A stretch of 64,000 nucleotides of DNA from a virus, in IMG/VR virus record IMGVR_UViG_3300009523_000001, positions 32,001 through 96,000 of that record. The stretch is one strand, 5' to 3'. A program made the position numbers and the translations under genes. The notes under the pieces were generated by a model. The model ran no database searches and was not told where the DNA came from. It was given only the letters and a program-made list of their open reading frames with translations. The first letter of the stretch is position 1; the number at the start of each line of letters is the position of its first letter. Positions 41,174-63,825 of this stretch are shown piece by piece.

Positions 41174-41476
41174 CTACTTTACGACGGCGCCGACGACGCC
41201 GCCCGCGACCGCGGTGGCAGCGAGGATTTTCCAGTTGCGCTGCAGGCGCGTGGCGACGCCGCGGACGCCGCCGAGGTTGGTCCCCTCCCCGAAGAACGTC
41301 GTCGCAAAGGCGGCGGCGGCGGCGGACATCGCGGCGCCGCCGACGAAGGCCCCCACCTTGCCAGCGGGCACGGAGAGGATGCTCGATTCCGCCGCAGGTT
41401 TGGCGAAAGTGCTCTGCGGCGCGAGGCCCACGCCGAACCCGGGAGCCGGTCGGCCGCCGAACTGGATGCGTTCCAT
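41174..41476 (-). CDS. Membrane protein with GRP-GFGVG motif
   Basis: IQFGGRPAPGFGVG; two hydrophobic helices. Confidence 0.75.
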   Translation of the reverse strand: MERIQFGGRPAPGFGVGLAPQSTFAKPAAESSILSVPAGKVGAFVGGAAMSAAAAAFATTFFGEGTNLGGVRGVATRLQRNWKILAATAVAGGVVGAVVK

Positions 41477-41509
41477 GCCCTCGAGCGTACGACGGTTCGG
41501 CGAGCGCGT

Positions 41510-42082
41510 CTACGCAGTCGCGCGGGTGCGGGCGGCCGCCGCCAGCGCCACGCCTCCAACGACGACGACGGCACCGCTCACAAGCAGGACGGTGGTCGTG
41601 TTCTCCGCGAACCAATCGAGAAAGCCGCCCTGCTGGGGCGCATCGGATGCAGGGGGAGACCCTCCCGGCAGTCTCGGAGGCGGCGCGGATCCTCTCGGCA
41701 CCGTCTTTGATGCGAGAGACGCCGCAAGGCTCGCTGCCTGCTGGTAGGCGTCGATCATGTCGTGGACGATCCCCTTCGCCATCTCCACGTCCGAACCGGT
41801 AGCCCCCGTGATGTTCGCGAGCTCTCCGTTCTTCTGCCACACGAGCTGCGTCCTCTTCATGACGTCGGGGCTGCCGCCGGACAGCGCGTCGATGGCGGGA
41901 CCCACGACACTGACCGCCGCGTTTCCCGCCGCCTGCAGGTCGGCGACTGCTTTGTTCGGATTGGTGATTCTCGGGCTGCGGTACTGCGCGAACGCAGCCT
42001 GCAGCGCTGCGATGCCCGGACCGATGACATCGGGCGCGCCCACGCCGAACCAGGCCACCGGTCGGCCGTTGAACTGGAGCAT
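41510..42082 (-). CDS. C-terminally anchored protein with GRPV-FGVG motif
   Basis: LQFNGRPVAWFGVG; C-terminal TM. Confidence 0.8.
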   Translation of the reverse strand: MLQFNGRPVAWFGVGAPDVIGPGIAALQAAFAQYRSPRITNPNKAVADLQAAGNAAVSVVGPAIDALSGGSPDVMKRTQLVWQKNGELANITGATGSDVEMAKGIVHDMIDAYQQAASLAASLASKTVPRGSAPPPRLPGGSPPASDAPQQGGFLDWFAENTTTVLLVSGAVVVVGGVALAAAARTRATA

Positions 42083-42102
42083 GCGGACCAGCGTACGCCG
42101 CT

Positions 42103-42819
42103 TCAGGCGGCTGGTCTACGCGGCGGCAGGTACGCGGCGGCTGCGACAGGAGCGAGTTTGACCGCCGCGACGACACCGCCGACCACCACCACCCCGACCA
42201 CGACCCAGAGCTGCCACGGGATCAGGTTGCTGGCAGCTTTCCCCGCCGCTGCTGCGGCCCCTTCGAGGGCTTCGGTCGCGATGTTCCCGATTTTCTGGAG
42301 TCCCCGTGAACCGACCAGGCCAAGGATCCCGAGAAAGTCCGCATCGATGGCCACAGACTGCAGGTCGGTGAGCACCTTGCGTTGCACGTCCGGCGACGGT
42401 GGATCCGGCCATTTCATGCCGGGCGCGAACTTGTCGACCTTTTCGTCGGCGGCGAGGTTGCTGATCCGCGTAATCGTGTCTTCCCAGGACTTGAGAATGA
42501 TGCCGGATTGTTCTTCGATCCGGTTCGGCGTCAGCCCGGCGAACTGGTTCCACGCCGCGAGCATGGTCTGCGCCTGATTGCGGTACGCGGCGCCCAGCTT
42601 CTTCAGCTCGTCGGTGGTGAATCCGGTCGGTGGGTGAGCCGCCACCATGTCGAACGAGTCGGCCACGGTCGTCATGTTTCGGAGCATTCCGAGGACGTAC
42701 GGATCCCACGCGCCGCGGTACGCGAGGACTGCGGCGACGACCGCGGACTGCGGCGGCGCGGCGGCTCCGAGAAAGCCAGCAACGGCACGGCCGCGGAATC
42801 GAATCGATTCGGTGATCAT
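42103..42819 (-). CDS. C-terminally anchored protein with GRAVAGFLG motif
   Basis: ATGA-coupled start 42819; C-terminal TM. Confidence 0.8.
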   Translation of the reverse strand: MITESIRFRGRAVAGFLGAAAPPQSAVVAAVLAYRGAWDPYVLGMLRNMTTVADSFDMVAAHPPTGFTTDELKKLGAAYRNQAQTMLAAWNQFAGLTPNRIEEQSGIILKSWEDTITRISNLAADEKVDKFAPGMKWPDPPSPDVQRKVLTDLQSVAIDADFLGILGLVGSRGLQKIGNIATEALEGAAAAAGKAASNLIPWQLWVVVGVVVVGGVVAAVKLAPVAAAAYLPPRRPAA

Positions 42820-43205
42820 TTTCGCTTCCTCCGAAACGTCCGCCGAGCAATTTCTTCGAGGGCCCATCCGGTCGCCGTAGAGACGAGGCTCATGACCAGG
42901 GCGTACTTCCACGGCGACGGGTGGGGAGGCGCAGCCGTCGCCGGCGCATCGAGGTGCCCCACTCCAGTGCTCATCCGTCCGCGCAAGAGATTCGCCATCT
43001 CGAGCGCGGTGCGCTGCGTGGGCACGATCCCGCCGCCCGGTTCGGTGCAGCCGCCCCCGTCGACCAGCGCGTCCCCTCGCCCAGAAGCGATGAGGCGATC
43101 CATGTCCTGGAGCTTGTTGCGCGTCGCGACCCACTCGGGCAGCGGCATCGATCCGAGGCCGAACCCGATGACCAGCCGCCCGTTGCGGTGGATGCCGTCT
43201 TGCAC
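42816..43205 (-). CDS. C-terminally anchored protein with GRLVIGFGLG motif
   Basis: GTG 43205 seven nt after a TACGTT -10; TM and basic tail. Confidence 0.7.
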   Translation of the reverse strand: MQDGIHRNGRLVIGFGLGSMPLPEWVATRNKLQDMDRLIASGRGDALVDGGGCTEPGGGIVPTQRTALEMANLLRGRMSTGVGHLDAPATAAPPHPSPWKYALVMSLVSTATGWALEEIARRTFRRKRK

Positions 43206-43225
43206 GCCGTTCAACGTACCACGGG

Positions 43226-43852
43226 CTAGTCCGGGAGTGTCGGAGGGTCGTTGCGGAGCTGCGCGGTGAGGCAGAACTCAATGAGATGCTGCAGGCGTGA
43301 CACGTCGATGACTCCGGAGGCCCAAGCGCGATCAGCGGCTTCCAGCGCTCGGACGTATGCAATGGGAGCGTACTTGATTCGCTGCGGTACGGGACTTTCG
43401 CCACCGAGTTCCTTGCCGAGTCTCTGGCACATGATCAAGTAGGATACGGCCCTGGCGGTTCGACCGTTGCCGTCGTCGAACGGATGAATCCACGCGATCT
43501 TCCACATGACGAAGGCAGCGAGAAACATCGCTTCACTCTCGTCCTCGGCATCGTACTCGTTGACGAAGGTGCACACGTCTTGCACAAGACGGTCGACGTC
43601 CACATACGGCGGAGGCTCATGGTGCGATCCGAAGATTTCGACGTCGCTTGTTCTCCATCGACCGGCGTTCGGAAGAATATCCTGCATTGCAACTTGATGA
43701 AGGCGGAGGATCATCCGCGGCGTCAGCGTTCGGTACGCAGGTGACCGTAGAGATTGACGCATCCACTGTCGTACCATCCGCAGTTGCTCAAGGCCGCCTT
43801 CGGCCTCACGGATCTCGGGTTCGTCCGAATCGTCGTCGTACCCCCACCCCAC
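43226..43852 (-). CDS. Fic-domain AMPylating toxin
   Basis: Canonical HPFDDGNGRTAR. Confidence 0.93.
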   Translation of the reverse strand: MGWGYDDDSDEPEIREAEGGLEQLRMVRQWMRQSLRSPAYRTLTPRMILRLHQVAMQDILPNAGRWRTSDVEIFGSHHEPPPYVDVDRLVQDVCTFVNEYDAEDESEAMFLAAFVMWKIAWIHPFDDGNGRTARAVSYLIMCQRLGKELGGESPVPQRIKYAPIAYVRALEAADRAWASGVIDVSRLQHLIEFCLTAQLRNDPPTLPD

Positions 43853-44031: not shown

Positions 44032-44079
44032 GGTCGTCTAGTGTAGCGGCTGCATAATTCTAGCGCAAATGCCGGAAAA

Positions 44080-49449: not shown

Positions 49450-50538
49450 GTGAGGACGTACGTCGTACAACATGGCGACTCACCGGCGAGCATCGCGGCG
49501 AAGGATTTTATGGCCGGGTGCCCGAAGTGCTCGATCGAGCTTGGACGCGTGAACGTCCACAAGCCAACGATTGTTCATCCAAACGGTTACGTCACTTTCA
49601 AAGAGCTCCGCGTCGGCGAGACTTTGCTGTTGCCCGACGAGTGGTTCCACCCGGCTCGCGAGAGCCTGCCGCCGACCTACTACAAGATCCTCCCCCACCA
49701 CGACGGAGTCACGCGGGGGTCGCTCAGTGGTATGCTCGACGGATCCCCCGAGCTCGACGTGGCCGTGCCCGCGGTCGCCCAGCTCGCGGCGCTCGGTGAC
49801 ACCGCGTTCACTCAAGCCGTGGGCGACGCGGGCGCGAAGATCGACGCAGCGGTGAAGGAAGCAGTCGGTTCGACGTCGGCGGATGCCGCCGCCAAGGCGA
49901 AGGCCGTCCAGGACGCGACGCAGTGGGCCTGGCAACGCAATCGCGACCTCGCAGCCGCCGTCGCAGCGAACGACAGAGCCACCGTCACCCGCGCGCGACT
50001 CGACATCCAGAACGCCCTCTCGACCGCACTCGGCAACGCGCACCTGGCGATCCAGGCGCATGCCCCGTCTGCGTCTCCTGTGCCGAGCAGTTTGCAAGCG
50101 GCCGCGAAAGCCGCGGTGGCCGCCCTCTCGGCCGACCCGAATTATTGCACTTCGGTCACCCATCCCGGGACTCCGGTCAATGCCGCGGTGCACCGCTTCA
50201 AGTTGGCGTGGAACGCTTCGCAGTCTCCGAAGGTCCCCGTCGGTACGGGCACCTACGAAGTGGCCACGACGGTGGCGCTCGCGCAGGTGGTCGGCCAGGC
50301 CCCGTCGGCGTGCGGTGCGGGTCAACGCCCGATGCCCGCACCGAAACCACCCCCACCGATCCCGTCGCCGAAGCAGGAAGCGATCACGCCGCCGAGCGAT
50401 GAGAGCGGCGGCTGGTCCTCTTGGACGATTGCTGCAGCCACGGTGCTCGGAGTGGTGGCCGTAGGCGGTGTCGCGTACGTGGCGACGAGACCGAGCAAGC
50501 CCGCACGCCGATCGAGTTTCGCGCCGGAGCCCGCATGA
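49450..50538 (+). CDS. LysM-domain protein with C-terminal membrane anchor
   Basis: YVVQHGDSPASIA..N..LRVGETLLLP; C-terminal TM then TRP. Confidence 0.82.
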   Translation: MRTYVVQHGDSPASIAAKDFMAGCPKCSIELGRVNVHKPTIVHPNGYVTFKELRVGETLLLPDEWFHPARESLPPTYYKILPHHDGVTRGSLSGMLDGSPELDVAVPAVAQLAALGDTAFTQAVGDAGAKIDAAVKEAVGSTSADAAAKAKAVQDATQWAWQRNRDLAAAVAANDRATVTRARLDIQNALSTALGNAHLAIQAHAPSASPVPSSLQAAAKAAVAALSADPNYCTSVTHPGTPVNAAVHRFKLAWNASQSPKVPVGTGTYEVATTVALAQVVGQAPSACGAGQRPMPAPKPPPPIPSPKQEAITPPSDESGGWSSWTIAAATVLGVVAVGGVAYVATRPSKPARRSSFAPEPA

Positions 50539-51734
50539 TCCGGGCATTTCGTTACCCACTTCGTCCAACGAAAGCGCAGGAAGCGACGCTTGAAGCATGG
50601 CTTACGGCGAGTTGCACACTTTACAACGCTGCTCTGCAAGAACGACGAGATGCGTGGAGCAAACAGCATGTGCGAATCAGTCGCTTCGATCAGCAGAAGG
50701 AACTAACTGAACTTCGGGCCACGGATCCAGAATGGGAGATGATCCCACTCTTGGTTCAGCGCAGTGCACTACGACGTCTTGACCGAGCGTTTCTGGCGTT
50801 CTTCCGACACGTAAAGCGCGGTGAAAAAAAAGGATACCCGCGCTTTCGGTCGCGCGACCGTTATGACTCATTTACTCTGCCTCCGCTTTTCGGGGTGCGC
50901 GCTGAAGGCGACCATGTACGCTTACCAAAACTAGGCCTGGTGAAGTTTCACCAGTACCGCGAGATGCGTGGCCGGATGAAGCAGGTCACGGTGGGTCGCA
51001 GCAGTACGCGCGGCTGGTACGTATCGTTCGTCTGCGACCTCGGCGAAGCGCCAACGAAAATCGCGGTCCGATCGGCTATCGGCATTGATGTCGGCCTGGA
51101 AGCGTTCGCTACGCTCTCTAACGGTGAGCGTGTCGAAAATCCGCGCTTCTTCCGCGCGTCGGAGAAGACGCTAGCGCGGCGCCAGCAGTTGCTCGCTCGC
51201 AAGCAACGTGGATCGAACAGTCGACGTCAAGCTCGTACACTGGTTGCTCGTACCTACGAGCACATTCGCAATCAGCGTCTGGATTTTGCCCGCAAGTTCG
51301 CGTGTGCGATCTTCAACCGGTTCGACCTCGTAGCGCACGAGAATCTAGAAATCGCCCGCATGATGCGCGGACATTTATCAAAATCCATTCGTGACGCCGC
51401 GTGGGGCGTCGCCATCAAAGCACTCAACTGCAAGGCGGAGGGTGCCGGCAAGTGGGTGGTGGCGACGGATCCGCGGCGTAGCAGTATCGACTGCTCAGGC
51501 TGCGGTGAACCAGTCCCGAAGGACTTGTCGCAACGTGAGCACCGATGCCCGCAATGCGGACTCATTCTCCATCGAGATGAGAACGCTGCGCGGAACGTTT
51601 TGGCGCGCGGCTTGCGCGCGGGGTCGTTGACCGAAGCCGTTACAACGGTAGGGCCGGAGTTTATGGCGTCGTTGACCGAAGCCGTTACAACGGTAGGGCC
51701 GGAGTTTATGGCCACTCTTGGAGCTTGCCAATGA
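50535..51734 (+). mobile_element. tnpB: IS200/IS605-family TnpB RNA-guided nuclease, no tnpA
   Basis: AFRYPLRPT, YNAALQER, GYPRFR, GIDVG, HENL, CSGC..CPQC, RDENAA: RuvC triad intact. Confidence 0.95.
51623..51712 (+). repeat. Perfect 45-bp tandem duplication at the tnpB 3' end
   Basis: gtcgttgaccgaagccgttacaacggtagggccggagtttatggc x2, each with a CCGTT-ac-AACGG inverted repeat. Confidence 0.95.
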
Positions 51735-52405
51735 TCATCATCGACAAGCCCGTAGAAGGTGTGAAGACGGACGTACGTTCGCACCCAGCCGGTCGTGATG
51801 GGTCGCTTCTCTCACTCAAGGAGGTTGCCGAGCGCGCGTGGAAGAGTCGTATGTCTCCGCGCCTGCGCGCGTGGACAACGCAGAAACTCGCCGAGGTGGG
51901 CGTATCGACGGGGTCGCGCCGGCAGAAGGGGCAAGCAGTTCTCGACGCGTTCCGCAAGAAGGTGCCGTATGTTGCTGACCCAGTTCTTGGCGAGTTCATG
52001 GAAACTCCGGAACAGACGCTCTGCTTGGACGAGGGAGGTCTTTGCTTCATCGGCACGGACTGCGACGGTGCAAGCATCTCGCTCGCCGCCGCGATGATGT
52101 CGATCGGCATCCCCGCGATGATCATCGGCTCGTCGCACAAGCACCCGCACGACGTGCCGACGCACGTCTTCATGGCCTTCCAGGACGAGCAGGACGACTG
52201 GGTCCGCATGGACGGCACTACGAAGCATCCGGTCGGTCGCGTCGCGCCGCACAAGCGCGAGTGGTGGTTCGAGCCGGGCGCGGAAGCGAAGAACCGCGGC
52301 GAAGGAGACTTCGTCGGGATGTCGGGCGGCAGCGAGGTCGGTGTCAGCGGAAGCGTCCGTGGGCTGGCGAGCGTGCTCGATCTGCTCTACCCGTCGATCC
52401 GGTAA
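51731..52405 (+). CDS. Transglutaminase-like (papain-fold) cysteine enzyme
   Basis: YVADP..E..P..TL; DCDG, HVF, WVRMDGT give a C-H-D triad. Confidence 0.85.
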   Translation: MIIIDKPVEGVKTDVRSHPAGRDGSLLSLKEVAERAWKSRMSPRLRAWTTQKLAEVGVSTGSRRQKGQAVLDAFRKKVPYVADPVLGEFMETPEQTLCLDEGGLCFIGTDCDGASISLAAAMMSIGIPAMIIGSSHKHPHDVPTHVFMAFQDEQDDWVRMDGTTKHPVGRVAPHKREWWFEPGAEAKNRGEGDFVGMSGGSEVGVSGSVRGLASVLDLLYPSIR

Positions 52406-52827: not shown

Positions 52828-52856
52828 TTGACGCTGCAAGAGCGCATTGTGAATCT
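52828..52856 (+). promoter_or_regulatory. Shared structural-gene promoter, copy 3
   Basis: TTGACG-ctgcaagagcgcattgt-GAATCT (17-nt spacer). Confidence 0.65.
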
Positions 52857-52873
52857 TGAAAAACGTTGAAGAC

Positions 52874-55800: not shown

Positions 55801-56242
55801 CGCCGCAAAAGAGGCGGCTGCTCCGCATGCGGACGCCAAGAAGCCTGCCGTGGCCGCTGCCGTCCAGGCTGCAGCAACCGGAGCGGCGACCGCCGCATCC
55901 GCCGCTCCGCCCGGCACGCCCACTCCGGTCGTGCATCAGATCGCCAAGGAAGGGGCGCAAGCCGCCGCGGACGCACACGGTCCCGTGGCTGACCACCCTG
56001 CCGTTCAAGCGGCCGTCGTGGCAGCCGCACCGGCGGCGGCGGCGGCCCACGCCGCCGCACCGCACGCAGGCACCTCGGGCGTCGGGAACCCACCCAGGAA
56101 CCTCCCCGTCGGCCCCCCCAAGCTGCCGCATCCGGGACCGCAACCGCTGCAGTCGGAGTGCGGTTGCCTGGACGACAGCCCGTACCTCGGCTTCATCGGG
56201 GACGAAGTCGAGCAAGACCTGCTCTGGAACGCGGCCGAGTAA
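52874..56242 (+). CDS. Large core-like protein: protamine-like Arg repeats, hydrophobic helices, Ala/Pro/His-rich modules
   Basis: QSLLFD..WT..AKQW..HG..RQQDP domain; repeated RET..VQARRRP units; in-frame internal ATG 53330 with GAGGAG. Confidence 0.8.
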   Translation: MGVYHSRLAELSAAHERGQRLGAGRRPSRPPYRQSLRPAPPGRREVRIGTVIPSTYVPPPYSPPPPPPPDPDSFVEAKRKAMQAQSLLFDRSAGWTVEKAKQWAKSHGYKSGKVDVTDRYVRLRQQDPKGFAVKRTVPFGKGIRAVVAREETMKKKTKTTRRPARKSAAKPKAAHRASPKRRTAPKRRAAPKSKTSVVTARRRPRHAREVRRTATESRRRPRRMRETPVVAEARRRPKHRKPTHRKPTHRKSTHRKRPSSYVMAKRRPHHHRKVSAWRGDSAGHSKAAKKGWRTRKGGKTTRKAAESRRRPRRHARETTTVQARRRPRRRVHEPMTVQARRRPKHRRARETKVVQARRRPRKYTRETTTVQARRRPRRHARETKVVQARRRPKHRRARETKVVRSYRAHKVRAPSFGSMARTAGNMALEVGTAAAAFLAADAIDRFLAGYDPSAANKPANKFTSDGVGTLANALNVASAPDLWRYGSLGVLTFGPLIGSLFIKKAAIRSSVEGMGVGAGIKFAATLWSSVLMPLLIGKDTSTPALQKSWIARLYPAEVSAALNMKSGTAAVSSGGAASKAGTLSDGSEQTGVGKDAGPFALADRFGRHREWVTPSSWTPPAIPGVPGYNDPGPTEMIVDDDDQPAPPVQSAWPPRWGHWHRWGLRGVGDAVQDMAHTIAAKTGVHPAHAVNAAMHAVAEPHDLTQALQRALPHLRRELLIECARHVHPHVVRMHAHARYPREHEEWTGARAAEGLPAPEHDAPESEWREWHGKRASAGLPYAPPPPDLPASTPAHLRERHEWHPNYEREIAYDRYPTVQQVMGIGAGGPATGGNPGQPGLGEVFSNAVQAAGASIPGIPLENAVTTTAYAAAEPFNCTRAIERAMPLIRSELARYCAENMSPYIQQLHAQTGVPVTTAAVPTPPVPAPPLSVIEFVPSPPPPSWTRGEAEWHTQERQDWDRTHGKATPAVEAAATHAAKEAAAPHADAKKPAVAAAVQAAATGAATAASAAPPGTPTPVVHQIAKEGAQAAADAHGPVADHPAVQAAVVAAAPAAAAAHAAAPHAGTSGVGNPPRNLPVGPPKLPHPGPQPLQSECGCLDDSPYLGFIGDEVEQDLLWNAAE

Positions 56243-56337: not shown

Positions 56338-57654
56338 ATGGCAAGGAACCTGCTGCAGAAGAAGTCGATCAAGTACGGCGGCGAGAGCCGCGAGAAGGTG
56401 ATGCGCGTGCCGTTCGGCCTGGGCGCTCCGCCCGGCGACGAGAAGGCCGCAGAGAAGTGCCTGCGATGCGGGTTCGGCAACGTGCCCGTCGTCGAGGAGG
56501 TGGTCTGGACGATCCCCTTGCCGCTGACCGCGGAGCAGGCGCAGACGACGTTCGGCGACACGGTCAACCCGCTCAGCGGGTCGTCCGCGGTGCCCGGCGT
56601 CGCGAGCATCGACAGCACGTTCCTCATCAACGGTATCCTGCAGACGGATATCCTCGCCCAGGGCATCGGCGTGCACGTCTTCTGCGAGCCGATGTCGTTC
56701 TCCACGATCGGCAACGCGTTCATCGCCCCGACCCAGCAGCTCGCCACCGGCTCCCCTCCGAGCCCGGACGTCTGGACGGCCAACGACTACGCAAACGGCG
56801 CCTTCGGGTCCTACGTGACTGGTCCCGATCAGGTGACCCCCGCGGTTTTCGAGTTCGGCGCGGCAACCTGGCGCGCAGGCTGGAACTTCATCAACGCCTA
56901 CCAGTTCCAGTGGAAGACGTCGCAGCGTGAGCTCGTGCTCAACGAGCTTGCGGCCGACATCTCGTACTTCGGATCGTTCGCTGACGCCGAAGCGAGCGGC
57001 ACGAGCGAGCTACCGGTCATCGACTACGTCGCGCTCGTCAACGCGCAGTACCGCGCGCAGGGTTCCGACACGATCTTCCTGCCGGTCAACTTCCGGCGGG
57101 TCGGCAGCTTCACCCCGTCGGGAGCATCGACCGGCGTCAACATCGGCATCTTCCACCCGACGCGCGACTTCGACCTCGCGCCGGTCACCTGGGGAGGCCT
57201 GCGGTGGCAGGGGTACGGCTGCCGCGGACAGATGTACCGACCGGTCGAGAGCCCGTGCTTTCTCGAGCGCGGAATCCCCATCGGGATGATCTTCATCGCG
57301 CAGGACGCCGTGCACCAGGCGCAGATGATCGAGGCGCTCACGATCGACAACGAGCCGTTCGGGATCAACGTCCTTCCGGACGTCAACCTGGCCGCCGTCA
57401 CCTCTGGAGGCAGCACCAGCCTCAGCTCGGCCGCCGTGCTCGCTCTCCTGCCTACGCTGGCCCTGCCGATGATGGAGCAGACACTCGACGGGACGGCGCT
57501 TTACGCGTCGCAGGTCGTCAACGACAGCCGCCAAATCTTCAAGGGCGGCATCCTCAAGCTCGGCATCAAGATCAAGGGCTGGGAGATGCCTGGCGGATGG
57601 AAGTCGTACTGCTCGGAAAAGTACCCGAGCATGATGCGAGCCCACGCGGCCTGA
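56338..57654 (+). CDS. Candidate major capsid protein (beta-rich, possibly jelly-roll)
   Basis: ORF is solid; function inferred only from size (438 aa), beta-like pattern, position after the core protein and a downstream hairpin. Confidence 0.45.
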   Translation: MARNLLQKKSIKYGGESREKVMRVPFGLGAPPGDEKAAEKCLRCGFGNVPVVEEVVWTIPLPLTAEQAQTTFGDTVNPLSGSSAVPGVASIDSTFLINGILQTDILAQGIGVHVFCEPMSFSTIGNAFIAPTQQLATGSPPSPDVWTANDYANGAFGSYVTGPDQVTPAVFEFGAATWRAGWNFINAYQFQWKTSQRELVLNELAADISYFGSFADAEASGTSELPVIDYVALVNAQYRAQGSDTIFLPVNFRRVGSFTPSGASTGVNIGIFHPTRDFDLAPVTWGGLRWQGYGCRGQMYRPVESPCFLERGIPIGMIFIAQDAVHQAQMIEALTIDNEPFGINVLPDVNLAAVTSGGSTSLSSAAVLALLPTLALPMMEQTLDGTALYASQVVNDSRQIFKGGILKLGIKIKGWEMPGGWKSYCSEKYPSMMRAHAA

Positions 57655-57751: not shown

Positions 57752-58348
57752 ATGCAGCCGCGAGACCACGACATCCGCAACCTTGCCCTCTATGCCCCAC
57801 GGATCGCGTATGGGATGGTCGCGGGCGTTCCTCGGGTGCCGTTCGTCGCGGACCTCCCGATCCAGTTCACGTCGAGCGTAGTCGATGCTCCCGCGATCAT
57901 CACGAGCTTCGACAACAACCTCGTCTCGGACACCGTCATCGACAACGTGTCGTTTACGCTGTTCCAGCAGAACTCGTTCCCTGGGAGCCCGTTCCAGAGC
58001 CTGTACTTCGCGTACCTCAAGGCCCAGACCGGCGTCGGCATCAAGCTCGACGTTTACGGGGGGCCGAAGTACGCCATCAGCGACGGACCCGTCGAGCTCG
58101 CAAACCTGTTTGACGTGATCAAGCTCACGTGGCCGTCTGGCTGGGTGATTTTCAAACAAAGTAACATCAAAATCGCCGCGGTCCTTTTCCAGACGCCGGT
58201 GAGCGTACCGTACGACGTACACATTTTGTTCAACGGGTTCCAATTCCTCGACAAGGTGATGGACGACATGAGCGATACCGACGCACGCTGCCGGCTGAGA
58301 AAGCTCGGCATCGAGTCCCCCGATCTGGCCGAGCTGCTCAAACCGTAA
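57752..58348 (+). CDS. Beta-rich putative structural protein
   Basis: RBS GGAGG; alternating hydrophobic pattern. Confidence 0.6.
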   Translation: MQPRDHDIRNLALYAPRIAYGMVAGVPRVPFVADLPIQFTSSVVDAPAIITSFDNNLVSDTVIDNVSFTLFQQNSFPGSPFQSLYFAYLKAQTGVGIKLDVYGGPKYAISDGPVELANLFDVIKLTWPSGWVIFKQSNIKIAAVLFQTPVSVPYDVHILFNGFQFLDKVMDDMSDTDARCRLRKLGIESPDLAELLKP

Positions 58349-58360
58349 GGGGATGAGCGG

Positions 58361-59347
58361 ATGCGCGACGACCAGGCGGCGGAGCTAACCGATCTGCAGG
58401 CCGAACCCATCGGGGTCGGTCAGCACGGGACAGACCCCAAAGCCATCGTGCCGCCGTCGAGGGGGCGGCGCGGCGACTTGGAGGTGAGGCTACTCGACCT
58501 GCAGCGCGACCCGAACGGGGTCGGCTATGGAGTCCGCACGCGCCTCTGGTCCGGTCGCCACGAGATCGTCCCCGCGACGATCGATCCGTTTGTCTCGCTG
58601 CTCGGCAGCGACCCGTGGGGATCGCCCGTCGGTACCGGCGTCCTCGTCCCCTCCACGCCAACGGCCACGCTCGTTCCGACCGGAGCACCCCCGTCGCAGT
58701 ACCGGTACCTCTTCTTGCTCGCTCGCGAGCAGTTCAATTCCGGCGAGCAGGGGGTGCGACTGACAGGCATCCGGATGTACGCGGAGCTCACCGCAACCGT
58801 TTCGGATGTCGGGACCTTCCGTAAGGAGATCATGAGTCCACTCTGGCATCCGCCCGACGGGAACATCTCCTGGCACATCGTGATGATCCCGAAGACCTGG
58901 ATGCTGACTCGCAACGTCCAGAACGCGGACAGTCTGAAGTTCCGCGACGCCTACGGGCCGTGCATGCTCTACGAAACGATCGCAGGCCCGCAGTTCGCGC
59001 CGACCGCGTACAAGCCCCCGAACGCCGGCCGGCCGTGGGGCAAGCCGCTTGGGAGCGTGAGCCTCGGCAACATGCACGACATGCGGTACCGCTGGCGTAC
59101 CGGCTACCTCGAACAGATGCTCGACATCCCGGTGCCGCTGCCGTGCGACATCGCGTTCTTCGCGAGCGTCCGGCAGAACGACCCGTCGACCAACCCGGCC
59201 GCGAGCGACCTGTCGGCCAATCAGTTTACGGCGCTCGGCACAGGGTCCGAAGACCAGTTTCTGACCGCCTTCAACACGACCGCGCAGTACGGCCGGATTG
59301 CGGGGTCGCTCGTCTTCGACGAGAATCTGGGAGAGGACGTGCCCTGA
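58361..59347 (+). CDS. Putative structural protein
   Basis: Operon context; 328 aa. Confidence 0.6.
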   Translation: MRDDQAAELTDLQAEPIGVGQHGTDPKAIVPPSRGRRGDLEVRLLDLQRDPNGVGYGVRTRLWSGRHEIVPATIDPFVSLLGSDPWGSPVGTGVLVPSTPTATLVPTGAPPSQYRYLFLLAREQFNSGEQGVRLTGIRMYAELTATVSDVGTFRKEIMSPLWHPPDGNISWHIVMIPKTWMLTRNVQNADSLKFRDAYGPCMLYETIAGPQFAPTAYKPPNAGRPWGKPLGSVSLGNMHDMRYRWRTGYLEQMLDIPVPLPCDIAFFASVRQNDPSTNPAASDLSANQFTALGTGSEDQFLTAFNTTAQYGRIAGSLVFDENLGEDVP

Positions 59348-60345
59348 TGACGAAGACAACCGGAGTCGGCGGGTGCGGAGGCGGATGCAGCGAGTTTCCG
59401 CGGATCCTGGTCCCCAAGGCCTGCGTCCTCGAACCGGGATCGCCAACGCCCCGGCAAGCCGCTCAGATCATGCACGACGACGGCACCTACGGCGATTGGA
59501 TCGACGATGTCCCCATCCAAGGACCGACCGACCGCGACATTCGCAAGGCCGACTGCTGGTGGAAAGACAACGTCCTCGATAAGGCCACTGACAACGCAGG
59601 GCGCATCGTGCCGCAGTGGACGCAGAACTCGCTCTGCATCGGCAACCGGTTCATGAGCTCCGGCATTGGCGGCATCGGCGAGACGGTCCGTCGTAGCGGC
59701 ACGCTCGGGCAGGCACCGGCAGCCGCCGCAGGACCAGGAATCAAGCTCTCCGACGCCGAGGCGCAGTGGGTGCTGTCCACCCTCACGCAGCTCAACGCGC
59801 TTATCCTCAAGGCCGGGAGCAAGCCCTGCGCAACCTGGCCATCGGACCCGACCAAGGCGCAGCCCGCGGCGGTCGCGTGCTTCCAAGGCTGGTTCAACAC
59901 GAACGTGAACCCGGGCCTGCGCACCGACGGGATGCTCGACCGCGACACGCTCTGCGCGCTCCTGACCGTCACAAGGCAGCACGCGACCGACTTCCCGACG
60001 CCGTACCCCGGCACCGTATTTTGCTTGTCGGCTCTGTCGACCCTGCCCATGCCCATGAAGATCGGCATCGGCGTCGCGGCAGCGGCGGTGGTCGGTGGGA
60101 CCGTGGCGGCGATCGCGGGGGCGTACGGCAAGAAGAAGCCGCGAACCGCACTGCCTGCGGCCAGCGAGGCGCGACGCGTAATCGGGTACCAAGTACTCGT
60201 CTTCAACCAGGGGTCTTCGCATCCAGAAGTGGTCGCGCCCGCGAACACCCAAGCGGAAGCAGAGAGGCTCAAGGATCACTACGAGAAGCAAGCCGACCGA
60301 CGCGGCTGGAACAAGCGCGTCGAAATCAGACCCGTGAGGGGCTGA
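59347..60345 (+). CDS. Membrane-anchored protein with peptidoglycan-binding-like domain
   Basis: AVACFQGWFN..LRTDGMLDRDTL; TM KIGIGVAAAAVVGG; ASEARR linker. Confidence 0.7.
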   Translation: MTKTTGVGGCGGGCSEFPRILVPKACVLEPGSPTPRQAAQIMHDDGTYGDWIDDVPIQGPTDRDIRKADCWWKDNVLDKATDNAGRIVPQWTQNSLCIGNRFMSSGIGGIGETVRRSGTLGQAPAAAAGPGIKLSDAEAQWVLSTLTQLNALILKAGSKPCATWPSDPTKAQPAAVACFQGWFNTNVNPGLRTDGMLDRDTLCALLTVTRQHATDFPTPYPGTVFCLSALSTLPMPMKIGIGVAAAAVVGGTVAAIAGAYGKKKPRTALPAASEARRVIGYQVLVFNQGSSHPEVVAPANTQAEAERLKDHYEKQADRRGWNKRVEIRPVRG

Positions 60346-60359
60346 AAAGGGGTTGACGG

Positions 60360-61157
60360 ATGCACGTCAGCTCGTGGGAAGACGTCGCCCCGCCGCGGAC
60401 GCTCATCAGTTGCGTCGTCCCGCCCCCGGGCCTCGGGAACTGGTGGAGCGGCAGCAAAGGTGGCGAAGAAACGCTCCCCGCCTTCCCAGGCATCAAGAAG
60501 CTCTCCGTAAGCGAACTGCAGTCCATCACCGAGACGGCCAACACTATCGGCATTGAACCGGACTGGCTCGCCACCATCATCAACTTCGAGACCGGCGGAA
60601 CGTTCTCCCCGACCCAGAAGAACGCGGCCGGGTCGGGAGCAACGGGCCTCATTCAGTTCATGCCAAAGACGGCCCAGAACCTCCTCGGCACGTCCACGCC
60701 GGAAGAGGCGATCCGGCAGCTCGAAGCGATGAGCTTCCCCCAGCAGATGAAGCTGGTCGAGCGCTACTTCGCGCCCCACGCGGGCAAGATGAAGAGCCTT
60801 TCGGACGCTTACCTGGCCGTCCTCTACCCCGCGTTCATCGGAGCGTCCGACGACGCAGTGATGGGCCGGACAGGAAGCGCCATCTACACGCAAAACGCCG
60901 GATTCGACAGCACGCACAAGGGCTACATCACGAAGGCGGACATCACCGGCAAAATCAACGCCATGCTCGACGGCACGAAGGAACGGGTCGCGACCGGGAT
61001 CCCGCTCGTCCGTCGACCGATCAAGCTGCGACCGATCCTGACGGGGATCGCGATCGTGGCCGCTGCCGGAGTCGTGGCCTGGGGAGCGGTCACCCTGACT
61101 AGCCGACCCGCGCGACGCGTGCCGGCACTGCAACGCGTACCTGCGGCGGCGACGTAA
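60360..61157 (+). CDS. Lytic transglycosylase (SLT) with C-terminal TM
   Basis: IINFETGG..N..SGATGLIQFMPKTA..AYLA. Confidence 0.88.
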   Translation: MHVSSWEDVAPPRTLISCVVPPPGLGNWWSGSKGGEETLPAFPGIKKLSVSELQSITETANTIGIEPDWLATIINFETGGTFSPTQKNAAGSGATGLIQFMPKTAQNLLGTSTPEEAIRQLEAMSFPQQMKLVERYFAPHAGKMKSLSDAYLAVLYPAFIGASDDAVMGRTGSAIYTQNAGFDSTHKGYITKADITGKINAMLDGTKERVATGIPLVRRPIKLRPILTGIAIVAAAGVVAWGAVTLTSRPARRVPALQRVPAAAT

Positions 61158-61167
61158 GAGGAACGTG

Positions 61168-62043
61168 ATGCACCTCGCAGAATCCATCTCGTTCGCCGGA
61201 AACCGAACCGTCGGCTTCGGTCTTGATGAAGTGACGCCGCATCTCTTTGTCATCGGCGACTCGCAGGCATGCGGCGCCACCGGTGCCCCGAACCTGACCA
61301 CCAAAACCATCGATCTCAACGGCACGCCCGCGCGCGTCCACTGCAAGGTCGGGGCACACACGTCCGAGTTCGCGGCCATCGTGCCGACGCTCGGCATTTC
61401 GAGAGGCGATACTGTGATCGTCTTCCTCGGCTCGAACGACTACGACAGCAAGCCCGACCCGACCGCGATCGTGAAAGCCATCGAGGCCGCCGGTGCGTCG
61501 ACCCTCTGGGTGGGACCGCCGTCGATTCGCGGGAAGGACGGCGCAGCACCGGCCCATCTCCAGTCCGTGCTAGGCGATCGGTACTTCGACTCGCGCACGC
61601 TCAACCTGCAGCTCCGCGACGGGATCCACCCGACCGCGAGTGAGTTCGCGCGGTGGAGAGCGGCCGTGCTCTCCGAGATCGCGAGCAAGCCGCCGATCGC
61701 CCCGACGACCCCTGTGAGCAGTGTGCTCGAGACGCTCCAGCGGCCGGCGGTTGCGGCGGCTGCCGCGTTGGGGATCCTCGCACTCGGCGGATCGATCTAC
61801 TGGATCGCCACGATGAGACGCGCACCGCAGCGCCTGTCGGCGGTCCGAGAAGGGGAAGGCAAAACTGTTAGCGCCAAAGATCTGAAGCCAGGCGATCTCG
61901 TTCGAGGCGAGAAGGGATCTCGTCGTTACCGTATCCTTTCGGTGAGACGCGTTGAAGGAGCGCGATCCGTTGAGGTTCAAGTTCAAAGCCAGGGGACGTG
62001 GCACTTCAAGCCAAACGATTCCGTAGAGGTCTTTCGATCATGA
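61168..62043 (+). CDS. SGNH/GDSL hydrolase with TM and small C-terminal beta domain
   Basis: IGDS, G, LGSND, DGIHP; N-terminal GNRTVGFGL. Confidence 0.85.
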   Translation: MHLAESISFAGNRTVGFGLDEVTPHLFVIGDSQACGATGAPNLTTKTIDLNGTPARVHCKVGAHTSEFAAIVPTLGISRGDTVIVFLGSNDYDSKPDPTAIVKAIEAAGASTLWVGPPSIRGKDGAAPAHLQSVLGDRYFDSRTLNLQLRDGIHPTASEFARWRAAVLSEIASKPPIAPTTPVSSVLETLQRPAVAAAAALGILALGGSIYWIATMRRAPQRLSAVREGEGKTVSAKDLKPGDLVRGEKGSRRYRILSVRRVEGARSVEVQVQSQGTWHFKPNDSVEVFRS

Positions 62044-62354
62044 ACACCATCTCGCGCGGTGGCCGACCCGTCGCCGGCTTCGCTCTTGGCCAGCCTCCCG
62101 AATGCCCTGCCGCGCTGCCGTCCGGCTCGAGTGCCGCTGCCCTGGTCGGCGGCGACCTCAGCGCGTTGCCGATCGCCGTCGGACACACGCTCGTCCGTGC
62201 GGCGCTTGTCGGAACGGGACTGCTCATCGCCGGCGAACGCGAGCACGTAATCAGAAACGCGGTTGCTGGCTCACTCGCGATCGAGGCGTTTGTCCTCGGT
62301 TGGGCTGCGTGGCTTCAACGGGGCCTCGGCAACAACGCCGAGGATCGCTCATAA
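62040..62354 (+). CDS. Small membrane protein with GRPVAGFALG motif
   Basis: ATGA-coupled; two hydrophobic helices. Confidence 0.75.
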   Translation: MNTISRGGRPVAGFALGQPPECPAALPSGSSAAALVGGDLSALPIAVGHTLVRAALVGTGLLIAGEREHVIRNAVAGSLAIEAFVLGWAAWLQRGLGNNAEDRS

Positions 62355-62430
62355 GGTTTTGCATCGCGGGAGACTGCCCGCAAAAAACCGCTGACCTTCA
62401 CTGTAGCAAAAAGGTACCATAAAGAACGCC

Positions 62431-63825
62431 ATGATCGCCAAACAGCCGCAGAAAACGTACAAGTTCGGCGACTCCCTGCCCCCCATCCCCGGCCCCGTTG
62501 CTTCCTGGCCGTGGCCCGGATCGGCCGCGCTCACGAAATGGAGCATCGACATGCTCCACTACCCGCTCGGGACCATCATCACCGACGTCGTCGACGGTCA
62601 TCCCGTCATCGCACAAATTCAAACACACTCTTGGTACGGCGCCCACCCCGACTGGCCCTCGACGCCTCACAAGGGGACCAGCGTATTTGTTCCGACCACG
62701 GTCAACGCGACCGGCAAGAAGATCCCCGTCGCCGATCCACCGGACGGGTGGGGGGAGGAATCACCGTCCGTGGCCGGCGTGGGGTCCAACGGGAAACCCG
62801 CAACCCCATGCGCGCCGGGAGATCCTCTCTGCACCGACCTTCCCGACGAATCTGCGCCGCACCCCACCAAGGAGTATTCAATGGACACAGTCTTCCTAAA
62901 CGGCCGTCCCGTCTCGTTCGGCGTGGGTGAGAACTTTTGCCCAACCCTTCCGTACGTGTGTCCGCCTCGCCCGTGGGGACCGGATCCGGGCCCGCGCGCC
63001 TCGATCGCGGATCGCCTCGGCACCGGCGACCGCGACGTGGGCGTCAGCGGATGCTGCCCGCGGCAATGGGAGCCCGATCCGGGCCAAACCCTCAGCGGGG
63101 TCGGCGACGTCGCTCCCCCAGCCCCCACGAACGTGGCGCAGATCCACAATGCGGCGCAGGCGGCCGTCAAAGGGCGCCCGCAGGCGCCGCATCCCGCCGT
63201 GCAGGGCTCGATCCAAGCCGCCGCGACCGGTGCCGCGCGCGTCGTCGCACCCCCCGGAACGCCCCCCGCTCAAGTGCACAGACTCGCGCGGCTCGGCGCC
63301 GAAGCCTCCGTGCTTCGCGCCGGCTCCCGGTTTGCTCACCCTCGTCACCCTGTAGTCTCCACCGCCATCCGCGCCGCCGCCCACGAAGCGGTCCTCGCGC
63401 ACGCGTGGCGGCCCGAGTGGGGCACCCGGCCCGCAGGGTTCGGCGCCACCCAATGGCGGCCCGAGTGGGGCGCTCGACCCGTGTGGTTCGGGGCCCGTCG
63501 ATGGAGACGCGAGTGGGGATTTCAGCCCGCGTGGTGGGCAGCGCATCAGACCGTGATGGACACGCCCCAACCGGACGATTCCACCACTCCGTCGGACGGT
63601 TCGCCCGCTTCGTCCGATGGTTCTCCCGCTCCGACGGACGGTTCCGCTCCGGCGGACGGTTCTCAGTCGCCCACAACGACAGCCCCCTCGGGCGGTCTAT
63701 CCACCCTCGCGAAGGTCGGCATCGGCGTCGCGGTGGTGGCGGTGGTCGGGGGGACGGTCGCAGCGATCTCGGCGAACGGCGGAAAGAAAAAGAAGTCCTC
63801 GCCGGCGGCAGGAACGTCGCCATGA
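62431..63825 (+). CDS. Modular C-terminally anchored protein
   Basis: Internal ATG 62881 with AAGGAG, then NGRPVSFGVG; WR(P/R)EWG x3; DGS repeats; TM then KKKK. Confidence 0.75.
   Translation: MIAKQPQKTYKFGDSLPPIPGPVASWPWPGSAALTKWSIDMLHYPLGTIITDVVDGHPVIAQIQTHSWYGAHPDWPSTPHKGTSVFVPTTVNATGKKIPVADPPDGWGEESPSVAGVGSNGKPATPCAPGDPLCTDLPDESAPHPTKEYSMDTVFLNGRPVSFGVGENFCPTLPYVCPPRPWGPDPGPRASIADRLGTGDRDVGVSGCCPRQWEPDPGQTLSGVGDVAPPAPTNVAQIHNAAQAAVKGRPQAPHPAVQGSIQAAATGAARVVAPPGTPPAQVHRLARLGAEASVLRAGSRFAHPRHPVVSTAIRAAAHEAVLAHAWRPEWGTRPAGFGATQWRPEWGARPVWFGARRWRREWGFQPAWWAAHQTVMDTPQPDDSTTPSDGSPASSDGSPAPTDGSAPADGSQSPTTTAPSGGLSTLAKVGIGVAVVAVVGGTVAAISANGGKKKKSSPAAGTSP

What the first reader, a model, noticed from the sequence alone, without database searches (positions are those of the whole stretch)
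41174..62928. Shared N-terminal GRPVxGFG(L/V)G motif on seven membrane proteins in two distant clusters
Seen: IQFGGRPAPGFGVG (41476), LQFNGRPVAWFGVG (42082), IRFRGRAVAGFLG (42819), IHRNGRLVIGFGLG (43205), ISFAGNRTVGFGL (61168), ISRGGRPVAGFALG (62040) and VFLNGRPVSFGVG (62881). The sequences after the motif are unrelated and all carry TM segments. It is not a Sec, Tat or lipoprotein signal. Inference: a dedicated sorting or propeptide signal for virion membrane proteins.
Basis: partly seen in the sequence, partly recalled or inferred. Interest (0 to 1): 0.85.

Follow-up and report, generated by a model that had tools for sequence, protein, structure and literature searches.

The report
Shared N-terminal tag on viral membrane proteins
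A 14-residue glycine-rich peptide sits at the start of several otherwise unrelated, membrane-anchored proteins of a new family of large peat and soil viruses, and most likely works as a common address or docking tag during virus assembly.

Summary
An eighth copy lies just past the window end (window-equivalent 64226). Consensus: [IV]-x-[RFLY]-[GN]-G-R-P-[VA]-x-G-F-[GA]-[LV]-G, usually with an acidic residue two positions before.

The contig is a complete 117.7-kb virus record. A profile of the motif finds exactly these 8 sites in it, and 3-7 sites in 9 of 10 complete relatives. In 11,804 six-frame ORFs there are 52 unique instances at 12 bits or more, against 0 in reversed decoys. Of these, 40 have an ATG within 8 residues upstream (background 14%). 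Codons vary synonymously between copies. Downstream sequences are mutually unrelated, and most proteins end in a transmembrane helix followed by a basic tail.

It is not a Sec, Tat, lipoprotein or prepilin signal. It is also not strictly N-terminal. One conserved neighbour family (p331) carries it internally, and some fused proteins carry two to four copies.

My best reading (0.45) is a modular docking or virion-targeting peptide, probably a beta-hairpin, that ties tail-anchored membrane proteins into the assembling particle. Precedents are the T4 capsid targeting sequence and poxvirus A17-D13. Cleavage, binding and virion location are all untested.

The parts
41174..41476 (-). m1, a 100-aa protein. 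Motif core at 41467-41426, starting at residue 4. Two weakly hydrophobic segments.
   Evidence: orthologues in 3 loci
41510..42082 (-). m2, a 190-aa protein. Motif core at 42079-42038, starting at residue 2. Strong C-terminal TM at residues 165-183.
   Evidence: 5 orthologue clusters in the 5.8-billion protein collection
42103..42819 (-). m3, a 238-aa protein. Motif core at 42804-42763, starting at residue 6; this is the weakest copy (GF-LG). C-terminal TM at residues 204-222.
42816..43205 (-). m4, about 129 aa, GTG start. Motif core at 43193-43152, starting at residue 5. Short hydrophobic C-terminal segment followed by a basic tail.
   Evidence: homologues in 8 loci
61168..62043 (+). m5, 291 aa. 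Motif core at 61186-61227, starting at residue 7. Then an SGNH/GDSL-hydrolase-like domain from about residue 22, a TM near residues 195-213, and a roughly 65-aa C-terminal domain.
   Evidence: SGNH rests on Atlas features 0.82-0.87 and structure TM 0.44-0.66 plus GDS / GxND / DxxH blocks seen by eye. Pfam found nothing.
62040..62354 (+). m6, 104 aa. Motif core at 62049-62090, starting at residue 4. Then a Cys-Pro stretch and two hydrophobic segments.
   Evidence: orthologues in 6 loci and 3 further clusters
62881..63825 (+). m7, 314 aa counted from the internal ATG. Motif core at 62890-62928. Cys/Pro-rich region, C-terminal TM at residues 279-297, then a lysine-rich tail.
   Evidence: (AAGGAG 7 nt before the ATG)
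62431..62880 (+). A 150-aa domain in the same frame directly upstream of m7, with no stop between. In the long form the m7 motif is therefore internal.
   Evidence: 80% identical over 149 aa in frame in L005. It is absent upstream of the orthologues in L006 and L008, where that frame reads as junk.
59350..60345 (+). p331, a conserved core protein with a C-terminal TM and basic tail. Its relatives carry an intact internal copy of the motif after an N-terminal region of 60-100 aa. In this genome that copy is degenerate.
   Evidence: PG_binding_1 in the L020 homologue (E 3e-12)
56338..57654 (+). Capsid-protein candidate, 438 aa. The family has a nearly invariant G-x-G in its N-terminal arm.
   Evidence: 29 IMG/VR relatives. 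211 representative clusters. AF2 pLDDT 85.8. Only weak fold rows, enriched in jelly-roll capsids. Atlas neighbours are viral coat families at 0.83-0.87. G27 and G29 at 90% or more in 76 sequences.
51725..52405 (+). Transglutaminase-like protein with a putative Cys-His-Asp triad (cysteine-protease fold). It is the candidate processing enzyme.
   Evidence: Pfam Transglut_core E 3e-4, below the cut-off. Conserved at 65-89% in 26 loci. Triad read by eye.
57752..59347 (+). p198 and p328, two conserved proteins directly after the capsid candidate. They are possible minor capsid proteins.
   Evidence: 30 loci each; no Pfam or PHROG family
49450..50538 (+). LysM-like protein with a C-terminal TM. It is tail-anchored but has no motif.
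   Evidence: 27 loci. LysM-like N-terminus read by eye; no Pfam hit.
60360..61157 (+). SLT-like transglycosylase with a C-terminal TM and basic tail, and no motif.
   Evidence: Pfam SLT E 1.7e-4, 21.6 bits against a cut-off of 21.3

Best explanation
The motif is a small, portable protein module. It is probably a beta-hairpin: hydrophobic strand, N-G or G-G turn, R-P-V strand, then G-F-G-L-G. I propose it serves as a common docking or virion-targeting tag.

The virus places the tag at the extreme N-terminus of many fast-evolving proteins that are otherwise unrelated. These proteins are held in a membrane by a C-terminal helix followed by a basic tail. A single partner in the morphogenesis module recognises the tag. 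The partner would be the jelly-roll capsid candidate, one of the adjacent conserved proteins p198, p328 or p331, or an assembly factor. Diverse cargo is thereby recruited to, or tied between, the membrane and the capsid of the assembling particle. Cargo includes an SGNH hydrolase, lectin-like and Cys/Pro-rich proteins, and 60-aa proteins that are just tag, linker and TM.

Shown here: the motif's reality, modularity, position, clade-wide conservation, the tail-anchor architecture and the gene neighbourhood. Inferred: the hairpin, the partner, virion location, and whether the tag is later removed.
For: 1. Specificity. There are 8 of 8 sites in the own genome and nothing else. There are 52 unique instances against 0 decoys in 11,804 ORFs.

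2. Conservation across a clade. I searched 10 complete relatives, some with terminal repeats. They have 7, 7, 7, 3, 3, 7, 3, 3, 0 and 5 sites.

3. Protein-level selection. Codons vary synonymously between copies.

4. Modularity. The eight downstream sequences are mutually unrelated. One is SGNH-like starting about 2 residues after the tag. Others have weak B_lectin matches or a PG_binding_1 domain. Some proteins are only tag, a linker of about 15 aa, and a TM.

5. Position. 40 of 52 instances have an ATG within 8 residues upstream, against 13.7% background. Five more probably use GTG starts.

6. Architecture. 38 carriers have a C-terminal TM. Net charge is +3.05 in the 15 residues after it and +0.42 in the 15 before.

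7. Genomic place. The carriers form a divergent cluster upstream and a co-directional cluster downstream of a conserved module: GroES-like, RadC/JAB, LysM-like-TM, TGase-like, the 1128-aa protein, capsid candidate, p198, p328 and p331. The same layout holds in G001-G003.

8. Decay when buried. The copy in this genome's p331 lies behind about 110 residues and has lost the G-F core. Relatives keep it.

9. Hairpin. N-G or G-G at the central positions is the classic tight-turn signature. The only non-family hit of the profile is the strand-turn-strand of the neighbouring YefM-like antitoxin. This is inference.

10. Precedents. [quoted passage not shown] The N-terminal tail of the vaccinia membrane protein A17 binds the base cavity of the double-jelly-roll scaffold D13. 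That cavity also takes D13's own N-terminus (PMC13672803, passages). Cleavage of the A17 N-terminus accompanies scaffold release (PMC4213562, passage).
Against: No experiment or proteome shows these proteins in particles, or shows that the particle has a membrane.

The capsid candidate's fold is not confirmed. No Foldseek hit reaches E 1e-3 in the PDB or BFVD. No packaging ATPase or terminase family was found: FtsK_SpoIIIE, Pox_A32 and Terminase_6N all gave 0 matches.

I saw by eye a resemblance between the tag's G-F-G-L-G and the capsid candidate's N-terminal R-V-P-F-G-L-G. Profile-profile comparison does not support it (hhalign probability 0.1).

The motif is not obligatorily N-terminal. Seven p331-family instances are internal, and P0160, P0163, P0166, P0168 and the L020 homologue carry 2-4 copies.

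Some carriers have no TM: the 8th protein and two proteins of about 200 aa in L037 and L039.

Conserved tail-anchored proteins of the module (LysM-like, SLT-like) lack the tag, so it is not needed for every membrane protein.

The positive tail after the TM would, by the positive-inside rule, put the N-terminal domain outside the cytoplasm. That complicates a cytoplasmic docking model.
Confidence: 0.45

Rival explanations
1. Propeptide or cleavage signal. The motif marks a site cut by a virus-encoded maturation protease, most plausibly the conserved transglutaminase-like Cys-His-Asp protein two genes upstream of the capsid candidate. Short N-terminal leaders would be removed, and fused proteins would be cut into units. 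This can coexist with the docking reading, as in T4 and poxviruses.
For: A TGase-like protein with an apparent catalytic triad is conserved at 65-89% in 26 loci, next to the capsid genes. A second TGase-like gene (E 7e-10) and an S8 subtilase also exist in the contig.

Internal copies sit exactly at junctions of fused units: the 150-aa domain plus m7, P0160, and p331's N-domain before its PG-binding part.

The capsid candidate's family has a nearly invariant G-x-G in its N-terminal arm.

Precedent: the A17 N-terminus is cleaved in an I7-dependent manner (PMC4213562, passage).
Against: Sixteen conserved positions are far more than a usual protease site needs.

The TGase-like gene is also present in L031, L032 and L035 (table). 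No motif instance was found in those loci, and none in the whole of G009. The enzyme therefore has another role at least.

The motif does not fit the adenain-type consensus when checked by eye. No cleavage data exist.
Confidence: 0.2
2. Unconventional export or membrane-insertion signal. The tag directs translocation of the N-terminal domain across the membrane (N-out, C-in topology) without a Sec or Tat signal peptide.
For: Basic residues follow the C-terminal TM (+3.05 against +0.42), which fits a cytoplasmic C-terminus.

Several N-terminal domains look extracytoplasmic. There are Cys pairs soon after the tag in 13 of 56 proteins, an SGNH hydrolase, and a peptidoglycan-binding domain.

No classical signal is present.
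Against: LysM-like-TM, SLT-like-TM and p331 have the same topology problem but no N-terminal tag. Internal and tandem copies cannot act as N-terminal signals. The tag has no hydrophobic core: only 2 of 56 proteins reach a mean hydropathy of 2.0 in the first 35 residues. No candidate translocase was identified.
Confidence: 0.1
3. A shared structural or oligomerisation hairpin with no targeting role. The N-terminal hairpins of different membrane proteins pair with each other, for example to build a hetero-oligomeric entry or lysis apparatus. Or they bind a host envelope component such as peptidoglycan.
For: The motif is embedded in a folded, peptidoglycan-binding core protein (p331 family) and occurs in tandem. 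Many neighbours are cell-wall-active: SLT, LysM-like, SGNH and Rv2525c-like.
Against: It is attached by short linkers to unrelated domains, and to minimal 60-aa proteins. That fits a tag better than part of a fold. It has a strong N-terminal preference.
Confidence: 0.14
4. Chance, low-complexity sequence, or a nucleotide-level element (promoter, translation signal) whose translation is incidental.
For: The genome is GC-rich, so Gly, Arg, Pro and Ala codons are common. A short DNA word (GTACG[CT]T) lies exactly 14 nt before three of the starts.
Against: There are 0 decoy hits against 52 real ones. Synonymous codons vary. The motif is conserved in relatives at 59-80% capsid identity. The DNA word precedes only 3 of 8 genes.
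Confidence: 0.01

Closest known systems
Capsid targeting sequence (CTS) of bacteriophage T4 internal proteins
   Same: A short conserved N-terminal peptide is the only thing shared by a diverse, fast-evolving set of proteins, and it directs them into the assembling particle (PMC3012670, passages). That the CTS is about 10 residues long and is cut off by the prohead protease is recalled, not seen in a call.
   Different: The sequence is different. T4 cargo is soluble and goes into a scaffolding core of an HK97-type head. Here the carriers are membrane-anchored, and the capsid candidate looks like a jelly-roll protein. Cleavage is not shown here.
Vaccinia virus A17 N-terminal tail docking to the D13 double-jelly-roll scaffold
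   Same: The N-terminal tail of a viral membrane protein docks into a jelly-roll capsomer and ties membrane to lattice. The same pocket also takes the capsomer's own N-terminus (PMC13672803, passages). N-terminal cleavage accompanies release (PMC4213562, passage).
   Different: That system has one membrane protein and a Tyr-rich tail with no sequence likeness, in a eukaryotic virus. Here 3-8 different proteins per genome share a Gly-rich tag. Binding is not shown.
Encapsulin cargo targeting peptides
   Same: Short Gly- and hydrophobic-rich peptides on unrelated cargo proteins bind the shell protein (PMC7925596, abstract in search listing only).
   Different: They are usually C-terminal, the cargo is soluble, the shell is HK97-fold and there is no membrane.
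Classical bacterial N-terminal signals (Sec, Tat, lipoprotein, type IV prepilin)
   Same: N-terminal position, and a basic residue early in the peptide.
   Different: There is no hydrophobic core, no twin arginine, no lipobox and no G/F-T-L-I-E.

Membership tests
Sec-type signal peptide | Hydrophobic h-region of about 7-15 residues after a basic n-region | tested here: not met
   The best 10-residue mean hydropathy in the first 35 residues has a median of 1.29. Only 2 of 56 proteins reach 2.0, against 40 of 56 in the last 60 residues. SignalP was not available.
Tat signal peptide | Twin-arginine S/T-R-R-x-F-L-K motif before the h-region | tested here: not met
   RR in the first 20 residues in 1 of 56 proteins. 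Tat-like pattern in 0 of 56.
Bacterial lipoprotein signal | Lipobox [LVI][ASTVI][GAS]C at the end of a signal peptide | tested here: not met
   0 of 56 within the first 40 residues, although 13 of 56 have a Cys within about 12 residues after the tag.
Type IV prepilin (class III) signal | G followed by F/M-T-L-I-E and a hydrophobic helix | tested here: not met
   0 of 56. The sequence after G-F is G-L-G plus a polar linker.
Virion or capsid targeting peptide (T4 CTS-like, functional class) | Short conserved terminal peptide shared by otherwise unrelated proteins of one virus | tested here: met
Virion or capsid targeting peptide (T4 CTS-like, functional class) | Peptide is necessary and sufficient for incorporation into particles | not testable with these tools
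   Needs an isolate or a heterologous assembly system.
Virion or capsid targeting peptide (T4 CTS-like, functional class) | Removal by a maturation protease | not testable with these tools
   No proteomic data. Candidate enzymes only.
Membrane-protein tail docking to a jelly-roll capsomer (A17-D13-like) | Capsid or scaffold protein with a double jelly-roll fold | tested here: inconclusive
Membrane-protein tail docking to a jelly-roll capsomer (A17-D13-like) | Direct binding of the tail to the capsomer | not tested
   No usable test result. See Tried and rejected.
Adenain-type maturation cleavage site | (M/I/L)-x-G-G|x or (M/I/L)-x-G-x|G consensus (recalled) and a clan CE protease gene | tested here: not met
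   Checked by eye on the alignments. The hydrophobic residue is out of register in most copies. No Ulp1/adenain family was seen in any Pfam scan.

The most novel reading that the evidence does not exclude
A previously undescribed lineage of large (80-125 kb) bacterial viruses from peat and soil has a jelly-roll capsid protein and uses a dedicated beta-hairpin 'address tag'. The tag hooks a changing repertoire of tail-anchored membrane proteins onto the capsid lattice or into an internal virion membrane. This would be a prokaryotic counterpart of the poxvirus A17-D13 tether and a membrane-protein version of the T4 capsid targeting sequence. The tag would then be a ready-made handle for loading foreign proteins into such particles.
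Probability: 0.3. Interest if true: 0.8.

Novelty: new variant of a known kind. Interest (0 to 1): 0.62.

Why it matters
Shared targeting peptides are how a few well-studied viruses and protein compartments load diverse cargo. None is known for membrane proteins of prokaryotic viruses.

Here the tag is defined precisely: 14-16 residues, with an invariant Gly and a near-invariant Phe. It is found on 3-8 proteins per genome across a whole clade, so the hypothesis can be tested directly with tag-reporter fusions and point mutants.

The carriers mark the accessory, fast-evolving membrane proteome of an uncharacterised group of large viruses with a jelly-roll-like capsid protein. This group itself deserves description. 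The genomes I searched lack a recognisable terminase or FtsK/A32 packaging ATPase.

If the tag is instead an export signal or a protease site, that would be equally new.

Tried and rejected
- **Complex prediction**. I folded the capsid candidate (A4) with the 34-aa tag alignment (A2). The verdict was 'no answer' (score 0.00, controls not run). It is neither for nor against binding. A trimer could not be sent because of the 1000-residue limit.
- **First capsid model**. From 22 close relatives it had pLDDT 50 and was useless. It was replaced by the 76-sequence model.
- **Fold and structure searches.** BFVD twice and PDB once gave no hit at E 1e-3. A PDB sequence-profile search gave 0 hits.
- **hhalign of tag alignment against capsid alignment** gave nothing. 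I therefore dropped the claim that the capsid N-arm carries the same motif. It remains a by-eye resemblance.
- **Motif breadth.** The word-indexed protein search with the m2 N-terminus found only 5 orthologue clusters among 8 candidates. With the 46-aa tag alignment and lengths set to 'longer', it found 15 proteins at E 10 or less among 8000 candidates scored. All are hypothetical and without Pfam families. This is weak evidence that the tag is confined to this virus group. I designed degenerate DNA patterns but did not run them, because too few bases were specified and too many chance hits were expected.
- **Family scans.** Pfam and PHROG scans of the carriers and of about 45 other ORFs gave no family for any carrier.
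- **A different N-terminal tag in the divergent relatives** (L031, L032, L035). The look was uninformative.
- **Sequencing runs.** No RNA holder was listed, so there is no statement on expression.
- **Literature.** Searches for a description of this virus group ('double jelly-roll' with Myxococcota; with Varidnaviria, soil, prokaryotic and large genome) listed nothing relevant. No search for the motif itself is possible by words.

Full report
**What the sequence is.** The window is bases 32001-96000 of a single 117,665-bp contig with 65.5% G+C. The genome tool identifies it as a virus record that CheckV rates 100% complete. Near-identical DNA is held by peat metagenome runs.

**The observation.**
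- A regex for the motif over the six frames of the whole contig returned those seven plus one off-frame hit.
- A looser pattern exposed an eighth genuine copy 226 bases beyond the window end. Like the seventh copy, it is followed by a Cys-Pro stretch.
- In every case the first hydrophobic residue of the motif is residue 2-7 of the protein.
- Shine-Dalgarno-like purine runs precede several of the starts, including an AAGGAG box 7 nt before the ATG of the seventh.
- Codons for the conserved Gly, Arg, Pro, Val and Phe differ freely among the copies, so conservation is in the protein and not the DNA.
- With the first 24 residues removed, no two of the eight proteins are similar by BLASTP (best E 0.18).

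**Is it more than chance?** I built a profile from the eight copies, taking the seeds from the genome by coordinates, and iterated it over all stop-to-stop ORFs of the contig and the related loci.
- Real hits score 12-30 bits, while reversed-sequence decoys never exceed 7-10 bits.
- In the final count there are 52 unique instances at 12 bits or more in 11,804 ORFs, and none in the 11,804 decoys.
- An independent HMM search with a 29-sequence alignment of N-termini (A2) returns exactly the eight sites in the own genome, E 2e-14 to 6e-8.
- The consensus from 41 unique cores is [IV]-[SFQ]-[RFLY]-[GN]-G-R-P-[VA]-x-G-F-[GA]-[LV]-G. The central Gly is invariant and the Phe is present in 39 of 41. 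An acidic residue commonly sits two positions before it.

**Relatives.**
- Ten of these records were searched whole. All are rated complete, and four have direct terminal repeats.
- The tag profile finds 7, 7, 7, 3, 3, 7, 3, 3, 0 and 5 sites in them.
- The only record without any is the most divergent one, at 44% capsid identity. The two other divergent loci (L032, L035) also show none.
- In G001-G003 the sites lie as in this genome. One cluster is on the opposite strand 11-21 kb upstream of the capsid gene, and one is on the same strand 4-12 kb downstream.
The motif is conserved both in orthologues and on proteins that have no counterpart in this genome.

**Who carries it.**
- Of 52 instances, 40 have an ATG-Met within 8 residues upstream, against 13.7% for random positions in the same ORFs. 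Five of the remaining twelve have a Val codon in the right place, probably a GTG start.
- At least 38 carriers have a C-terminal transmembrane helix within 60 residues of the end. Net charge is +3.05 in the 15 residues after it and +0.42 in the 15 before it.
- What lies between tag and anchor is diverse. It includes an SGNH/GDSL-like hydrolase that begins about two residues after the tag (the catalytic blocks are also visible by eye, but Pfam is silent). It also includes weak B-lectin-like regions (below Pfam's cut-off), Cys/Pro-rich stretches, helical domains of unknown family, and in several relatives nothing at all.
- Those last proteins are about 60 residues long and consist of tag, a linker of about 15 residues, TM and basic tail.
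- The carriers evolve fast. Each of the eight has BLAST-detectable homologues in only 1-8 of the 37 related loci, although many loci do not reach the clusters. The module between the two clusters is conserved in 17-32 loci.

**The neighbourhood.**
- Between the clusters lie a 181-aa protein, a GroES-like protein (by eye) and a RadC-like JAB domain protein (Pfam E 1e-24).
- Then come two Pro-rich proteins, a LysM-like protein with a C-terminal TM, and a transglutaminase-like protein. The last has Pfam E 3e-4, just under the cut-off. A Cys-His-Asp triad is visible by eye, and it is 65-89% identical in 26 loci.
- Then come a 1128-aa protein, the capsid candidate, p198, p328, p331 and an SLT-like transglycosylase with a C-terminal TM.
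- An IS605-type TnpB gene at 50421-51734 has no counterpart in any relative, so it is a recent insertion.

**Is the capsid candidate a capsid protein?**
- A profile search of 1.84 billion representatives found 211 family members.
- With 76 of them as alignment the AlphaFold model is confident: pLDDT 85.8, pTM 0.84, about 20 strands and two long helices.
- Foldseek finds nothing at E 1e-3. The weak rows are dominated by jelly-roll capsid proteins: papillomavirus L1, FLiP, STIV and PRD1 major capsid proteins, tectivirus capsids, and adintovirus and mavirus pentons.
- I therefore call it a probable jelly-roll capsid protein, with the double jelly roll unconfirmed.
- No FtsK/HerA, A32 or large-terminase family is detectable in the contig. 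PHROG and Pfam scans of about 45 ORFs show no tailed-phage hallmark.
- Relatives of the capsid gene in genome collections occur only on contigs binned into a Candidatus Binatia MAG and Polyangiaceae MAGs. This is a weak host hint.

**What it is not.** Among 56 carriers:
- the best 10-residue hydropathy in the first 35 residues has a median of 1.29, and only 2 reach 2.0, against 40 in the last 60 residues;
- RR occurs in 1;
- a Tat-like pattern, a lipobox and a prepilin motif each occur in 0.

1. The p331 family is a conserved core protein with a C-terminal TM and a very basic tail, and in L020 a clear PG_binding_1 domain. It carries an intact copy after 60-100 N-terminal residues that are homologous across the family. 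In this genome that copy has decayed.
2. The seventh motif lies in frame behind a 150-residue domain that is 80% conserved in L005. In L006 and L008 the orthologue starts at the motif.
3. Database proteins show fusions with two copies (P0160) and tandem copies (P0163, P0166, P0168). The L020/L025 p331 homologue has about four.

The element is therefore a portable module that strongly prefers, but does not require, the N-terminus.

**Mechanism.** N-G or G-G at the centre, flanked by alternating hydrophobic residues, is the signature of a tight beta-hairpin. The only non-family sequence the profile picks up is the strand-turn-strand of the adjacent YefM-like antitoxin.

A short hairpin at the tip of diverse membrane-anchored proteins, encoded on both flanks of the morphogenesis module, is best explained as a common docking or virion-targeting tag.

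Two precedents were checked in the literature.
- In vaccinia, the N-terminal tail of membrane protein A17 binds the base cavity of the double-jelly-roll scaffold D13, a pocket that also accepts D13's own N-terminus (PMC13672803, passages). Processing of the A17 N-terminus accompanies scaffold removal (PMC4213562, passage).

By eye, the capsid candidate's N-terminal arm ends in a similar hydrophobic-G-hydrophobic-G, and its two Gly are at least 90% conserved in 76 sequences. Profile-profile comparison gives no support for this, so it stays a lead.

**Rivals.**
- A protease-site or propeptide reading is attractive. Internal copies sit at fusion junctions, and a conserved Cys-protease-fold gene sits beside the capsid gene. 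But the motif is long for a cleavage site, and the enzyme persists in relatives that lack the motif.
- An export-signal reading fits the positive tail and the extracytoplasmic look of several domains. It fails to explain the untagged tail-anchored proteins and the internal copies.
- A plain oligomerisation or cell-wall-binding hairpin cannot be excluded.
- Chance or a DNA-level element is excluded.

**Novelty and verdict.** I found no description of this virus group in two literature searches. None of the 15 proteins returned by the tag search carries a name other than 'hypothetical protein' or a Pfam family. The concept of a shared targeting peptide is known. This sequence, its attachment to tail-anchored membrane proteins and its viral lineage are new.

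Noticed in passing
whole contig (window 1-64000 and beyond); loci L005-L033: The contig belongs to an undescribed group of complete 80-125 kb virus genomes, four of them with terminal repeats. They share a probable jelly-roll capsid protein. This genome has no detectable terminase, portal, HK97 capsid or FtsK/A32 ATPase. It occurs in peat metagenomes. The capsid relatives in genome collections are binned with Binatia and Polyangiaceae MAGs.
   Followed up: partly
window 41490, 42096, 43219 (- strand): The word GTACG[CT]T lies exactly 14 nt before the start codons of m1, m2 and m4, out of 30 occurrences in the contig. It may be a duplicated 5' cassette or a translation or transcription signal of the upstream cluster.
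   Followed up: partly
window 50421-51734 (+): An IS605-type TnpB gene (OrfB_IS605, Cas12f1-like TNB and HTH domains) is inserted between the LysM-like and transglutaminase-like genes. It is absent from all 37 related loci, so it is a recent insertion into the structural module.
   Followed up: partly
window 40349-41164 and 43226-43852: A Fic-domain gene (Pfam E 1e-18) and, by eye only, HicB-like, RelE/YafQ-like and YefM/Phd-like toxin-antitoxin genes sit next to the upstream motif cluster. Fic has a counterpart in only 1 related locus.
   Followed up: no
window 56338-56440 (capsid candidate N-terminus): The capsid family (76 diverse members) has a nearly invariant basic-x-hydrophobic-G-hydrophobic-G element 15-30 residues from the N-terminus. 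Some members have two or three copies. p198 shares a P-R-V-P-F stretch with it.
   Followed up: partly
L020/L025 12728-15106 (+): The p331 homologue is a 793-aa ORF. It has a long His/Pro-rich low-complexity region, a PG_binding_1 domain and about four motif-like copies.
   Followed up: partly
window 32260-36636 (-), 15138-17243 (-), 23658-28421 (-): There is a 1458-aa protein with collagen triple-helix repeats, a further Gly/Pro-repeat ORF, and a 1587-aa multi-glycosyltransferase (GT2 x3 plus TPR). Methyltransferase and epimerase genes lie next to them. This looks like a fibre-glycosylation island.
   Followed up: no
window 52856-56242 (+): A 1128-aa conserved protein directly before the capsid gene has an N-terminal run of Arg-rich 'RRRP...' repeats, a hydrophobic middle and a Pro/Ala-rich C-terminus. 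No family was found. It may be a DNA-binding, tape-measure or scaffold protein.
   Followed up: no
genome 15006-15998 (L001) and window 51725-52405: There are two transglutaminase-like genes in one virus genome. The first matches Pfam at E 7e-10.
   Followed up: no
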